Part shown: positions 6,001 through 64,000 of the stretch, in pieces | How the letters are laid out: each line of letters starts with the position of its first letter | Numbering within the stretch: the first letter of the stretch is position 1 | Origin: Octopus vulgaris | Taxonomy: Eukaryota | Assembly (NCBI GenBank): GCA_951406725.2 | Contig: OX597836.1 | Coordinates: 38,254,001 to 38,318,000 of the forward strand | Direction of reading: 5' to 3' | DNA length: 64,000 bases | Position numbers: made by a program

Positions 6001-9000
6001 TACAAATTTTTATGGAGTTCTTCTTCTCTTCACTTAACCATGACAGTTTCCAATATACCCCCACAGAAATCCTCTTCATTTATTGATCCACCCAGCCCAC
6101 ACTGTGCATACTATTTCATCCAAGGTAAATTTCATCCAAGATATTTCCTCTCCACTCCACCAATCTCATCAGCAAGTGCACGTACACTTAAAATATAAAA
6201 ACAGCTTTGGTCATATCAAATTAACATGATCATTGACTTTTGTTAATGTCCTCCCATTACCCTCAAAGAATGTACTATAGAACTAGCATCTATGCTCATC
6301 AAGTTCTTCATTATTACTGTCATTCCAGAGATCCATCCAGTTATTTGTAAACATGCACTATGTGTGTCTTCTTCCCATCTAGGCAACTCTTCTACCAACA
6401 TATTCTTACATCCTACATCTAAAAAGTGAGAGAGTCAGTCGTTAACAGCTACCTTTTCCAATATCTTGAATCTCTCTTTAAAGATCACCAATATTTTTTA
6501 AACCTAGATCTGCCATTGTCTCAGGCTCACAATAACCACTTCTCTTAATCCTAACTTCCCAAAATATGCTCATTGTTCTCCATGTAGCTGTTTGAGAGAA
6601 ACATTATTTATGCTGATTTCATTGGTCTCAGATGTCCTCTAATGGTCATGGGTTCAGCCACTTCTTTCAGACCAAACCAACAAAAAAAAACAAAAAACAA
6701 ACACAATAGTAAAAGTTTTAAAAAAATTTATTATATGACACAAAAATTCTCTCTTATATTTGCACATTTCAATTTTGTTTAAAATGACAATTCACATTCA
6801 GTAATGAATTTAATCTGTTTATGCAAATTTTCATTAAATTACTTTTATTGGATTTTAAAATTAATGTAATTTGACTGCAAAAAGTAGTTATGTATGCAAA
6901 GAGTTTCTACTTTAGAATTACTGTTACAGCAATAAACTTATATTTTGTGCTTATAAAGTTTATCATAAACTTAATTGTGAAATGTTTGTTCATGACTTTT
7001 TATACTTTAGTGTAAGAATGTATTCATTCAATCATAAATTTCCATTTATGGTCTGATCGAATGTCAGTGAATGTAGAATCTCAATATATAGCAAATAGAA
7101 AATAACAGTACATTTAGTGGATTTCTTAATTAATTTGTATAAATCATAACAATTGCAAAAGTTTTCATCACTTCATAATGGAAATTATACTTTTATTTTG
7201 TGAAAGCTACAACTGAACCTCCAACCGAGCCTACTGGTAAGTTTTGTCTAGTTTCAACCTCACTTTACAATTTGCACCACAGCAGTCATGTTTTAGCACA
7301 CTTTTAGAAAGTCATTATAAAACATATATTATATCCCCTGTAATTACTTTCTGTTTAATATGCTGCACTAATATTAATCATTTAGTTAATCAAAGTTAAT
7401 AATTATATATCGCAAAATATTACTGTGAATTTGACTACTATACAAATAGAACTGATTTTGTACAAAATTATGTAAGACAATGATTTCAGTTCTCCTAGTA
7501 CAAATATCACATCATTAATTTGCTAGGTGGGTATTACTGACACCCTCCATGAGTTTATTGATTGAAACTTCATAAACTCTCAGTAAACGTTTGTCTCACT
7601 TAGCACCTGTCATTTATAATGCTTCCCCATACATACAGATTAAAAAAAAAACTTATAGCCTCACCTCATGGTGAAGTTAGACATCTAAAAGACAGCTTGA
7701 TAGGAAATTAACAGATTACATTATCAAGAATGTTGCATAAGCAATTCCAAAGAGACATTTTGTAATAATGTTAATAATAATGTATCCATTCAAATTATGA
7801 TTAATTTCGCCTTTTTACACTGTTAAATAATTACTGAAGCAATTATTGGCAATCATAACTTCTGAAACTAATTTTTTCTTATCATTTTCTTTACAGTACC
7901 AACTACAACACCTACAACAACTGGTAAGTTTCCTTGCTCTTTATTTCCTGCCTTTTATTAAAATTTATGAAAAAGGTATTTTACAATCATTGCTAAAATA
8001 CTGAAATATTCCATAGTCTAAAAATTATATACTATATTTTAAATATTCAAATCTAATAAATATATTTTAAATATTGAAAAATACTGTATAAGAAATATCC
8101 AAATATATTTTACATATTGAAATACTTTCAGTTTGCTTTAGAATGATATTGCGATTTTTATCTGAAGCTCTCCTTAGGAGTTAGTGGGTTGAAACACTTA
8201 GTGGGTTGTAACACTATCCAAATTTCTGTTTATAGTCTGGTTGAGTCTCAACATATAACAAATAGCTTTTTGATTATTGTCATATTTCAGAAACAAGGGC
8301 AACACAACACACATAATTCATAGGGGACAAATAAATGCAATAGTGATGCAGTTAATACTGAAACTGACATATTAGAAGTGAGGTCATTGTCAAAATAACT
8401 TTGAAAGCAGTGGGTTTAGAATAGATACTGTCCTCAGTATGATGGACATCATGTTACTTTTAGTACTGGGGGTAGAGAGAATAGGGATGTGATGTCAAGA
8501 GAGAAGAGTAAGTTTAAATGGAGTTGAGTGTAACTACAAAGTTTGTATGAGCACAATTTGTTATAGTTGTGTATCTGAAGAGATGTAGAAAGAGCACTTC
8601 ATAATAATGGAATCTAAGTCAAATTTATGCTTAGTAAGAAGAGAAGTAATGTTTAGAAAGGTAGCATTCTTCTTCTGCTAAAATATCAAAGTGATATATC
8701 ATGTTAAACAACATGTTATACCAAAGAAAATTTGCTCAGAATTAAAAGTGAATTTCTGCAGTCTTAATATGAATGTTCCTTCACCGGTCTAAACAATGAG
8801 GGATTAAAATGTCTTTGTTTGAGAAATGAGAGATTTTGCAAGCTGATTTACTAAATAATATATGTAAGTTGGTCAATACAATGGAAATTCTTAATGACAA
8901 AGTAGTTGGCTACCAAACATGAATTGTTAATAATTAGACTGAAAGAAGCAGTAATACAGGCATGATTTTATAAAAATTAGTATCTTTGAATGTGATCTGT

Positions 9001-63000: not shown

Positions 63001-64000
63001 ATATAGCAACACTGGTGATAGATTTATCTCACTAATATTCTATTATTCATACAAAACATTTGCTATATTAAAAAAATGTCTTCTCGTTTTGTGTTGTTTC
63101 ACTTTGAAGTACCTCATAAAGCTTTTATGAAAAATAATTATCTATCTTGTAAACAAATCAGTTGTATCAGAAAATAATTATGATGCAGGTAAATTGAACT
63201 TCTTCATATCCTTGTGTATATTTGTTTCTATTAATTGTGTAAATATTTACTTTGTAGCAGTCATGCCAACTCCTAAACCACCTACATCAGGTAATATTCA
63301 GTTCCATATCTTGTCAGAATTTTTTTATCATTTCTAGCAGATTCATAATATTTCATTTATAATAAAAATTTATATCATCTTTGTCCAAAACCATATCTAT
63401 CTCAATTATATGAACTTGAGTGTGTGTATATATGCACACACACATACATATATATATAGGTATATTATATATGTTGTGTATTATATATTTGATATAAATA
63501 TATATATGTATTATATCATAGTAATTTTTAAAATGTCACAAAATATTATATACACACAATATTAAATATATGCGTGTGTGTGTGGAGAAATAGTTAAATT
63601 TGACATGCTTTTGTGCCTGCTATGAAGGTGCACATATATCTGTGTGGACTGGAATGTCTGCTGACAGGCCATTGGAATTAATAAACTGTCAAACACTTGT
63701 AATATGCAAATTAGAAGCTGCAGTTCTTTGAGTTCCTAAATTCAAATCTATTAGTATCTTGTTCTATAATCGATTTTGTTGCATAATACACACATTCATA
63801 TAGACATATTTATATAGAAACACATACAACTATCCATTTATGTATATGTACAAACACATACACATATGTATACATACATGCATGTTCACTTACACAAGTT
63901 TACTTATCAATCTATATATGTATATACTAGCTGGTGTACCCAGTAATTCCCAGCGGTAAAGATGTTCTGTTGAAACAATTTATTAATCTGATATAAAAAA

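What the first reader, a model, noticed from the sequence alone, without database searches (positions are those of the whole stretch)
7207..63290. Fully modular gene: single-exon VWA domains spaced by hidden mucin-like microexons, all phase 1-1
Seen: 9 VWA exons alternate with 13 microexons (12-42 nt) mostly encoding Pro/Thr spacers, and every exon is symmetric phase 1 and frame-preserving. Known: phase 1-1 modules underlie exon shuffling in extracellular proteins, PT-rich stretches are O-glycosylated, and gene predictors often miss microexons. Inference: any subset can be skipped in frame, so splicing could tune both VWA number and inter-domain spacing. This would give a beads-on-a-string cross-linker for mucus, glue, cuticle or cartilage. 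No Gly-X-Y exon is present here, so a 'collagen VI' label may be wrong.
Basis: partly seen in the sequence, partly recalled or inferred. Interest (0 to 1): 0.8.

Follow-up and report, generated by a model that had tools for sequence, protein, structure and literature searches.

The report
Octopus multi-VWA matrix gene, modular exons
This is the middle of an octopus gene for a large secreted matrix protein made of repeated VWA binding domains joined by short Pro/Thr spacers; each piece has its own frame-neutral exon, a neat but largely expected design already partly annotated in a sister species.

Summary
They sum to 5484 nt (1828 codons), every length is a multiple of 3, every exon ends in G, and all are phase 1-1. 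Nine are full VWA domains (Pfam E 9e-35 to 2.5e-46).

Of the 13 microexons:
- Ten are Pro/Thr-rich and far beyond chance.
- Two rest on strong splice signals only.
- The 12-nt one cannot be told from noise.

The window is collinear with Octopus bimaculoides protein A0A0L8FLC0 (93-96% identity). That model already contains six of the microexons, so they are not "hidden". It lacks VWA2 and three microexons.

One VWA domain per exon with cassette skipping is known for COL6A3 (PMC7319802). Pro/Thr linkers are common in mollusc relatives, and two oyster isoforms differ only by such a linker.

The window has no Gly-X-Y run. None of the 15 closest long mollusc relatives carries a collagen helix, so "collagen VI" is probably a similarity label. 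The gene's 3' end lies outside the window.

Tunable splicing is possible by arithmetic but not shown. This is a new member of a known kind, of modest interest.

The parts
7207..7236 (+). microexon, 30 nt, phase 1-1, encodes (A)TTEPPTEPT
   Evidence: AG/GTAAGT flanks. Identical peptide in O. bimaculoides P0001.
7897..7923 (+). microexon, 27 nt, phase 1-1, encodes (V)PTTTPTTT
   Evidence: Identical peptide in P0001. Splice score 26.0 bits.
9629..9655 (+). microexon, 27 nt, phase 1-1, encodes (V)ATTIPTTT
   Evidence: One mismatch to P0001 VTTTIPTTT. Weak acceptor in the matrix.
12755..12781 (+). microexon, 27 nt, phase 1-1, encodes (V)PTTIPTTT
   Evidence: Also one mismatch to the same P0001 peptide, so only one of 9629/12755 is represented in P0001. 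The exon is 85% identical to 7897 and to 9629, while the flanks are 26-36% identical.
13277..13846 (+). VWA exon 1, 570 nt, phase 1-1, no terminal Cys pair
   Evidence: Pfam VWA E 3.4e-44. Splice sites. 94% identical to P0001 590-788. MIDAS and Cys.
16227..16268 (+). microexon, 42 nt, phase 1-1, encodes (E)IPTTPPTTPVPTT
   Evidence: Absent from P0001.
18259..18825 (+). VWA exon 2, 567 nt, phase 1-1
   Evidence: Pfam VWA E 9.4e-44. Intact MIDAS and Cys pair. No match above 80% in P0001.
19259..19285 (+). microexon, 27 nt, phase 1-1, encodes (E)PPTTPAEP
   Evidence: One mismatch to P0001 EPPTTPPEP.
22392..22952 (+). VWA exon 3, 561 nt, phase 1-1, no terminal Cys pair
   Evidence: Pfam E 2.5e-46. 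93% identical to P0001.
25032..25064 (+). microexon, 33 nt, phase 1-1, encodes (E)PTTTPVITTT, donor GTATGT
   Evidence: Splice score 21.8 bits. Absent from P0001, which joins VWA3 directly to VWA4.
25612..26178 (+). VWA exon 4, 567 nt, phase 1-1
   Evidence: Pfam E 2.9e-44. 96% identical to P0001.
26944..26973 (+). microexon, 30 nt, phase 1-1, encodes (G)MPTRKPRPT
   Evidence: Identical peptide in P0001.
28151..28183 (+). microexon, 33 nt, phase 1-1, encodes (E)PPTRPPVSVR
   Evidence: Identical peptide in P0001.
28492..29061 (+). VWA exon 5, 570 nt, phase 1-1
   Evidence: Pfam E 1.1e-44. 96% identical to P0001. AlphaFold2 pLDDT 89 and Foldseek TM 0.89 to integrin alpha1 I-domain and collagen VI alpha3 N2/N5.
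30119..30688 (+). VWA exon 6, 570 nt, phase 1-1
   Evidence: Pfam E 4.3e-45. 96% identical to P0001, whose model ends here by reading into the intron.
34951..34977 (+). candidate microexon, 27 nt, phase 1-1, encodes (E)HTPVISSS
   Evidence: Splice signals only, 25.5 bits, the top of the background. No homologue covers it.
37852..38427 (+). VWA exon 7, 576 nt, phase 1-1, first MIDAS motif reads DTSTT
   Evidence: Pfam E 9e-35.
45714..45731 (+). candidate microexon, 18 nt, phase 1-1, encodes (G)PDTDG
   Evidence: Splice signals only, 20.0 bits. No homologue covers it.
48100..48669 (+). VWA exon 8, 570 nt, phase 1-1
   Evidence: Pfam E 1.4e-42. No close homologue found; best identities are 52%, 52% among the listed proteins, and 57% for any window exon.
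53972..53983 (+). doubtful microexon, 12 nt, encodes (G)RTT
Evidence: Splice score 6.4 bits, within noise.
56755..57321 (+). VWA exon 9, 567 nt, phase 1-1, MIDAS Thr replaced (GSAN), loop 3 reads TDS
   Evidence: Pfam E 5.1e-36.
63258..63290 (+). microexon, 33 nt, phase 1-1, encodes (A)VMPTPKPPTS, donor GTAATA
   Evidence: Splice score 13.4 bits. Its donor shows that the gene continues beyond the window.

Best explanation
The window holds an internal stretch of one + strand gene of an Octopus-like cephalopod. It appears to be the counterpart of O. bimaculoides A0A0L8FLC0. The gene encodes a large secreted extracellular-matrix protein made of tandem VWA (integrin I-domain-like) modules.

Each module is one exon of about 567 nt. 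Most modules are separated by short Pro/Thr-rich spacers, each encoded by its own microexon of 27-42 nt. All exons are phase 1-1 and end in G, so every junction codon is GNN and any exon can be left out in frame.

Shown here: the exon anatomy, the domain identity and fold, the collinearity with the sister-species model, and the lack of any collagen-helix coding in the window and in the closest relatives.

Inferred: the protein acts as a multivalent 'beads on a string' binder. Its VWA domains would grip matrix partners (collagen-type ligands by analogy) through their metal-ion sites. The Pro/Thr spacers would be stiff, probably O-glycosylated, and would set the distance between domains. The cassette layout would allow isoforms that differ in domain number and spacer length.
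For: Domain identity and layout:
- Nine VWA domains pass the Pfam cut-off.
- All are phase 1-1 with canonical splice sites.

Microexons:
- Ten Pro/Thr microexons are strand-, frame- and splice-specific.
- Three 27-nt microexons are 74-85% identical to each other, while their anchored flanks are 26-36% identical. This points to constraint on the exon itself.

Sister-species model:
- P0001 (O. bimaculoides) is collinear with five VWA exons at 93-96% identity and carries six microexon peptides with 0-1 mismatch.

Binding-domain features:
- The three MIDAS motifs as matched by sequence are complete in 7 of 9 domains.
- An N- and C-terminal Cys pair is present in 7 of 9 domains and lost together in VWA1 and VWA3.
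- The VWA5 model has pLDDT 89. Its best fold matches are collagen-binding integrin alpha1/alpha2 I-domains, collagen VI alpha3 N2/N5 and mussel byssus PTMP1, at TM 0.87-0.89.
- By sequence, PTMP1 scores E 4.8e-36.

Relatives:
- Pro/Thr linkers between VWA domains occur in scallop, oyster, mussel, sea slug and nemertean relatives.
- Oyster isoforms X4 and X2 are identical except for a 41-residue Pro/Thr linker. The flanking residue change, Gly versus Val...Ser, fits a split codon.
- Argonauta P0185 has 25 VWA domains, with a 13-residue linker at 10 of 24 junctions.
- COL6A3 has one VWA per exon with skipping of N3, N5, N7, N9 and N10 (PMC7319802, passages).
Against: - No transcript, signal peptide, start or stop was seen. 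Both gene ends lie outside the window.
- No homologue covers VWA7-9, so 34951, 45714, 53972 and 63258 have no cross-species support.
- The ligand, glycosylation, tissue and any isoform usage are inferences only.
- The exons missing from P0001 may reflect model or assembly faults rather than splicing.
- The MIDAS deviates in VWA7 and VWA9.
Confidence: 0.8

Rival explanations
1. It is the N-terminal globular part of a true collagen VI-like chain. A Gly-X-Y helix and C-terminal domains would lie downstream of the window.
For: - Pipelines name the relatives 'collagen alpha-3/4/6(VI)-like'.
- COL6A3 has the same design of one VWA per exon in its N-terminal array.
- The best PDB sequence hit is the collagen VI alpha3 chain, E 6.7e-102, summed over several domains.
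- The 3' end of the gene was not seen.
Against: - There is no Gly-X-Y run of 4 or more triplets in six frames of the window.
- P0001 has none.
- None of the 15 closest long mollusc relatives (45-54% identity) lists Pfam Collagen. The vertebrate collagen VI hits that do are only 29-35% identical.
- All 38 of the 184 fetched proteins with long Gly-X-Y runs are at most 34% identical to the query.
- Relatives end instead in EGF, SRCR, TSP1/ShK or Ig modules.
Confidence: 0.07
2. The layout is real but the exons are constitutive. There is no tuning by splicing. The exons missing from the O. bimaculoides model are annotation or assembly faults.
For: - P0001 is an automatic, truncated model that starts inside a domain and ends by reading into an intron.
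- VWA2 is intact, with complete MIDAS motifs, a Cys pair and a strong donor.
- Symmetric phase is the normal legacy of exon duplication and needs no splicing role.
Against: - The oyster homologue has annotated isoforms that differ only by a Pro/Thr linker.
- The COL6A3 VWA exons are skipped in vivo.
- P0001 omits four separate exons in frame while keeping their neighbours.
Confidence: 0.4
3. Some of the 13 microexons are chance AG...GT frames, not exons. This applies above all to 53972-53983, and possibly to 34951-34977 and 45714-45731.
For: - 53972-53983 scores 6.4 bits, and 79 of 1308 background candidates reach 5.
- At a looser filter, 9 of 21 listed candidates were plainly non-exonic.
- The next-best background candidate, 47720-47752 at 17.5 bits, lies inside an inverted-repeat element. 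This shows that high scores can be spurious.
- The matrix was trained on this gene's own exons.
Against: - 34951 and 45714 are the two best of 1308 background candidates.
- Each sits alone in an intron between two VWA exons, where the other introns carry spacers.
Confidence: 0.6
4. It is a decaying or non-functional tandem array, that is, a pseudogene.
For: - VWA7 and VWA9 are the most divergent, at 33-47% identity to the other domains, and each has one altered metal-site residue.
- No close homologue was found for VWA8.
Against: - All nine frames of about 190 codons are open in a 30% G+C sequence where stops are frequent.
- All splice sites are canonical.
- 27 columns are invariant across the nine domains.
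Confidence: 0.03

Closest known systems
Octopus bimaculoides VWFA domain-containing protein A0A0L8FLC0 (P0001, 1580 aa, uncharacterised automatic model)
   Same: It is collinear with window VWA exons 1, 3, 4, 5 and 6 at 93-96% identity. It carries six of the Pro/Thr microexon peptides with 0-1 mismatch.
   Different: It comes from another species or copy. It has three more VWA domains upstream of the window. It lacks VWA2, 16227, 25032 and one of 9629/12755. It stops after VWA6 by reading into the intron, so VWA7-9 and four microexons are not represented.
N-terminal VWA array of vertebrate collagen VI alpha3 (COL6A3 N2-N10)
   Same: The VWA domains are tandem and each is encoded by a single exon, with whole-domain cassette skipping (PMC7319802, passages). 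The fold matches N2 and N5 at TM 0.89.
   Different: Sequence identity to the structural matches is only 23-29%. No Gly-X-Y helix, Kunitz or FN3 domain was seen here. Separate Pro/Thr spacer microexons are not a described feature of COL6A3. Whether the COL6A3 exons are phase 1-1 I recall only and did not verify.
Lophotrochozoan multi-VWA matrix proteins labelled 'collagen alpha(VI)-like', 'cartilage matrix protein-like' or 'COL6A' (Physella, Argopecten, Pecten, Mytilus, Saccostrea, Elysia, Pomacea; Argonauta hians Ahia01_001362400)
   Same: VWA domains are 45-61% identical. Pro/Thr-rich linkers sit between domains and there is no collagen domain. Isoforms differing by a linker are annotated in Saccostrea. 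A 13-residue optional linker is present in Argonauta.
   Different: Domain number and the added modules (EGF, Ig, SRCR, PKD) differ. The exon structure of these relatives could not be checked here.
Mussel byssus proximal thread matrix protein 1 (PTMP1; PDB 4cn8, 4cn9, 4cnb)
   Same: It is a mollusc secreted protein of tandem VWA domains with an occupied MIDAS, from the load-bearing byssus. Sequence E is 4.8e-36 and TM is 0.87-0.89.
   Different: It has only two domains. No function or tissue is known for the octopus gene.
Schistosome micro-exon genes (recalled; only the title of PMC4671649 was seen in the listing)
   Same: They have symmetric microexons whose skipping keeps the frame and varies a secreted protein.
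   Different: There, most of the coding sequence is microexons. Here microexons are 366 of 5484 coding nt and serve as spacers between large domain exons.

Membership tests
VWA domain superfamily (Pfam PF00092) | Profile match above the curated gathering score | tested here: met
   9 of 9 exons score 120.9-158.5 bits against a cut-off of 23.8.
VWA domain superfamily (Pfam PF00092) | Rossmann-like alpha/beta fold of integrin I-domains and VWF A domains | tested here: met
   Tested for VWA5 only. pLDDT is 89.0 and pTM 0.89. TM is 0.89 to integrin alpha1 I-domain and to collagen VI alpha3 N2/N5.
VWA domain superfamily (Pfam PF00092) | MIDAS metal site (DxSxS, Thr loop, Asp of TDG). The motif definition is recalled. 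| tested here: met
   All three motifs are present in 7 of 9 domains. VWA7 has DTSTT. VWA9 has GSAN in place of the Thr loop. This is by sequence only; geometry was not measured.
Collagen VI chains | Gly-X-Y triple-helical segment (Pfam Collagen PF01391) | tested here: not met
   No run of 4 or more triplets in six frames of the window, and no long run in P0001. None of the 15 closest long mollusc relatives lists PF01391. Caveat: the 3' end of the gene is outside the window.
Collagen VI chains | Closest relatives are collagen VI chains (orthology) | tested here: not met
   Mollusc non-collagen proteins are 45-54% identical, while the vertebrate collagen VI chains are 29-35% identical. No tree was built.
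Collagen VI chains | C-terminal C1/C2 VWA domains, and for alpha3 an FN3 and a Kunitz domain | not testable with these tools
Collagen VI alpha3-type gene layout | Each N-terminal VWA domain is encoded by one exon that can be skipped in frame | tested here: met
   9 of 9 domains are single exons, phase 1-1. The comparator comes from PMC7319802 passages. Skipping itself was not tested.
Matrilins / cartilage matrix protein | VWA plus EGF modules and a C-terminal coiled coil (recalled definition) | tested here: inconclusive
   No EGF or other domain was found in the 10 other long frames scanned. The C-terminus was not seen.
Gel-forming or tethered mucins | Long Pro/Thr/Ser tandem-repeat domain of hundreds of residues (recalled definition) | tested here: not met
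   The spacers are 3-13 whole codons each, and all 13 microexons total 122 codons. No coding tandem repeat was found.
Schistosome-type micro-exon genes | Most of the coding sequence lies in symmetric microexons (recalled definition) | tested here: not met
   Microexons make up 366 of 5484 coding nt.

The most novel reading that the evidence does not exclude
The Pro/Thr microexons and VWA exons are used combinatorially. Octopus tissues would then make isoforms with different numbers of binding domains and different spacer lengths between them. That would amount to a splicing-set 'molecular ruler' for the valency and reach of a matrix cross-linker, shared with other molluscs (oyster linker isoforms, the Argonauta optional 13-residue linker).
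Probability: 0.25. Interest if true: 0.55.

Novelty: new member of a known kind. Interest (0 to 1): 0.3.

Why it matters
The finding gives a clean, checkable exon map for a cephalopod multi-VWA matrix gene, including short spacer exons that are easy to mis-annotate. It also shows that the 'collagen VI-like' names given to such mollusc proteins rest on VWA similarity alone.

If the cassettes prove to be used alternatively, the gene would be a simple model of how splicing sets domain number and spacing in a matrix cross-linker. As it stands, the design follows the known rule for extracellular modular genes. No function is attached to it.

Tried and rejected
Searches that led nowhere:
- A full-length or close homologue covering VWA7-9. 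The 'longer' search with VWA8 gave at best 52% identity.
- The all-representatives search gave at best 52% among the proteins listed. Eleven of the 150 representatives, mapped back to the window, reached at most 57%.
- The search for proteins of 2766-5000 residues gave an Argonauta paralogue at 38-58% per exon, not an orthologue. Proteins of 2001-2765 residues were never searched.
The other 4 members of its cluster stayed unseen.

Candidates and frames rejected:
- The extra candidate exon 47720-47752 (17.5 bits) was rejected. It lies in an inverted repeat, 47568-48000, 81% self-complementary, and has a GTTAGT donor.
- Ten other long frames in the introns have no Pfam match above the cut-off. 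There are only sub-threshold hAT and Tc3-type hints.
- Rfam and tRNA scans found nothing.
- Isoforms of a Mya arenaria relative differ by modules of about 93 residues, not by VWA domains or linkers, so they do not bear on the spacer idea.

Literature:
- No paper mentions A0A0L8FLC0.
- None of the 10 papers listed, of 267 holding at least two of the three terms, holds both 'microexon' and 'VWA domain'.
- Octopus skin-mucus proteomics lists 'VWFA domain-containing protein', 'collagen alpha-3 and 4' and 'cartilage matrix proteins' (PMC11431876, passages). Which genes these are would be in supplements, which are closed.

Not done or not available:
- The joined 1828-residue model was not built, searched or folded. 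Every search was exon by exon.
- Genome contigs holds only bacteria and archaea and was not used.
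Full report
What the window is. The 64-kb window has no N and is A+T-rich, at 26-35% G+C. Stop-to-stop frames of at least 150 codons include nine on the + strand whose translations are VWA domains. All nine match Pfam VWA (PF00092) at E 9e-35 to 2.5e-46. A search with the fifth VWA exon alone returned Octopus bimaculoides 'VWFA domain-containing protein' A0A0L8FLC0 as best hit (P0001, 1580 aa, 97% identity). 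After it came mollusc proteins that pipelines label 'collagen alpha-4(VI) chain-like', 'COL6A', 'cartilage matrix protein-like' and similar. P0001 maps collinearly to window VWA exons 1, 3, 4, 5 and 6 at 93.0-96.4% identity. The window therefore comes from an Octopus-like cephalopod, probably a congener rather than O. bimaculoides itself. The species was not determined.

Checking the observation. Each VWA frame is preceded by a pyrimidine tract and an AG that puts the first exon base at codon position 2. Each is followed by a G|GTAAGT-like donor that leaves one base of the next codon. This makes nine exons of 561-576 nt, all phase 1-1.

To find the microexons I first used the linker peptides of P0001 as probes and read the DNA. 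I then scanned de novo for AG...GT segments in phase 1. This recovered 13 microexons of 12-42 nt. Every exon length is a multiple of 3 and every exon ends in G, so each junction codon is GNN (Gly, Ala, Val, Glu or Asp). Introns are 308-7286 nt long. I did not build, search or fold the joined 1828-residue model. All searches were made exon by exon.

Is it more than chance? A scan for Pro/Thr-rich stretches that ignores splice sites gave 9 hits on the + strand and none on the - strand. Eight of the 9 are bounded by AG and GT in phase 1. With splice criteria, Pro/Thr-rich open candidates number 8 distinct exons in + strand phase 1, against 0-2 in each of the five other strand and phase combinations. 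Adding 26944 and 28151, which are less Pro/Thr-dense but identical in P0001, gives ten well-supported microexons.

Three 27-nt microexons (7897, 9629, 12755) are 74-85% identical to each other, while their anchored flanks are 26-36% identical. This is the pattern expected if the exon, not the surrounding DNA, is under constraint.

For the three candidates that are not Pro/Thr-rich I trained a splice matrix on the other 19 exons. 34951-34977 scores 25.5 bits and 45714-45731 scores 20.0. They are the two best of 1308 + strand background candidates, and only 2 of 1732 - strand candidates reach 15 bits. 53972-53983 (12 nt) scores 6.4 bits and sits in the noise, where 79 of 1308 candidates reach 5. 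A caveat is that the matrix comes from this gene's own exons. The next-best candidate, 47720-47752 at 17.5 bits, lies in an inverted-repeat element, so a high score is not proof.

What the sister-species model says. P0001 contains the peptides of 7207, 7897, one of 9629/12755, 19259, 26944 and 28151 with 0-1 mismatch. These microexons are therefore already in a public model and are not 'hidden'. P0001 lacks VWA2 (no match above 80%), 16227, 25032 and one of 9629/12755. It joins VWA3 to VWA4 and VWA5 to VWA6 directly. It has three more VWA domains that lie upstream of the window. It ends after VWA6 by reading into the intron, so it is a truncated automatic model. Whether its missing exons reflect splicing, the assembly or the predictor cannot be told. 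No homologue closer than 52-57% covers VWA7-9, so the four downstream microexons have no cross-species support. Proteins of 2001-2765 residues were not searched, and the members of P0001's cluster could not be listed.

The domains. The nine domains are 33-58% identical to each other, so the array is old, not a recent amplification. Twenty-seven columns are invariant. The three metal-site motifs (DxSxS, the Thr loop, TDG) are all present in 7 of 9 domains. VWA7 reads DTSTT and VWA9 lacks the Thr. A Cys near each end of the domain is present in 7 of 9 and lost together in VWA1 and VWA3, as expected for a disulphide pair.

VWA5, folded with the other eight as its alignment, gives pLDDT 89.0 and pTM 0.89. 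Its best structural matches are the collagen-binding I-domains of integrins alpha1 and alpha2 (TM 0.82-0.89), collagen VI alpha3 N2 and N5 (TM 0.89-0.90) and mussel byssus PTMP1 (TM 0.87-0.89). By sequence, the best solved relatives are the collagen VI alpha3 chain (E 6.7e-102, several domains summed) and PTMP1 (E 4.8e-36).

Collagen VI or not. No frame of the window has 4 or more consecutive Gly-X-Y triplets. Of the 184 proteins fetched by then, 38 have runs of at least 8 triplets, and all of these are at most 34% identical to the query. P0001 has none. In the search for long relatives, the 15 mollusc hits (45-54% identity) list no Pfam Collagen domain, whereas the vertebrate collagen VI hits (29-35%) list Collagen and Kunitz. 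Pfam scans of ten relatives show VWA arrays alone or with EGF, SRCR or TSP1/ShK modules, and a Mytilus relative carries Ig-like segments between its VWA domains. The 'collagen VI-like' label is thus most likely a similarity name.

How ordinary is the design? [quoted passage not shown] That these exons are phase 1-1 is my recollection only.

Pro/Thr-rich linkers between VWA domains are seen in Argopecten, Pecten, Saccostrea, Mytilus, Elysia and the nemertean Lineus. Two annotated Saccostrea cucullata isoforms are identical over 665 of 666 aligned residues, apart from a 41-residue Pro/Thr linker between two VWA domains. The flanking residue is Gly in one isoform and Val...Ser in the other, as a phase-1 split codon would give. 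Argonauta hians protein Ahia01_001362400 has 25 nearly identical VWA domains, and a 13-residue linker is present at 10 of 24 junctions. It is a paralogue, not the orthologue, at 38-58% identity per exon.

I found no paper naming A0A0L8FLC0. None of the 10 papers listed for 'microexon', 'VWA domain' and 'threonine' holds both of the first two terms. One study counts 111 VWA-domain proteins with 150 VWA domains in O. bimaculoides (PMC11291548, passages).

Most likely working. Shown: the gene is a string of intact ligand-binding-type VWA modules and short Pro/Thr spacers, each a frame-neutral cassette. Inferred from the families named above: the product is secreted, it binds matrix partners multivalently through the metal sites, the spacers are extended and probably O-glycosylated, and exon skipping could vary valency and spacing. 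Tissue and partner are unknown. Octopus skin-mucus proteomes list VWFA-domain, 'collagen alpha-3 and 4' and 'cartilage matrix' proteins (PMC11431876, passages), but their identity would be in supplements that are closed.

Verdict. This is a new member of a known kind of modular extracellular gene, already partly annotated in a sister species, and its interest is modest.

Noticed in passing
window 47568-48000: The segment is 81% identical to its own reverse complement over about 400 nt (a MITE-like inverted repeat). It lies just upstream of VWA exon 8. One arm carries a tRNA-like stretch, and the element creates a false high-scoring microexon candidate at 47720-47752.
   Followed up: partly
window 33246-33638: A long (AT)n microsatellite of 197 copies sits in the intron after VWA6. 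This is the intron where the O. bimaculoides model breaks off. Further TA runs lie at 10584, 12338, 19551, 19971, 36606 and 44647.
   Followed up: no
window 21362-22021: A pyrimidine-rich low-complexity stretch gives an open 219-codon frame rich in L, P, S, H and T. G+C skew is -0.17 over 20001-24000. It lies in the intron before VWA3 and has no domain or splice context. It was not scanned with Pfam.
   Followed up: no
window 46270-46620 and 51064-51435: Both frames give sub-threshold Pfam hints of transposase remnants in introns. The first hits the hAT dimerisation region at 18.7 bits against a cut-off of 21.4. The second hits a Tc3-type HTH at 18.3 bits against 31.5.
   Followed up: no
window 62805-62971 and 58481-58564: There is a 12-nt tandem repeat (TATGTATATATG, 13.9 copies) about 290 nt upstream of the last microexon, and a 28-nt repeat of 3 copies at 58481-58564.
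   Followed up: no
window VWA exons 1 (13277-13846) and 3 (22392-22952): These two domains have lost both the N-terminal and the C-terminal cysteine that the other seven keep. This looks like a coordinated loss of a presumed disulphide.
   Followed up: partly
P0185 (Argonauta hians, 4971 aa): The protein has 25 almost identical VWA repeats, in contrast with the old, diverged repeats in the window. This suggests recent amplification, concerted evolution or an assembly effect in that species.
   Followed up: no
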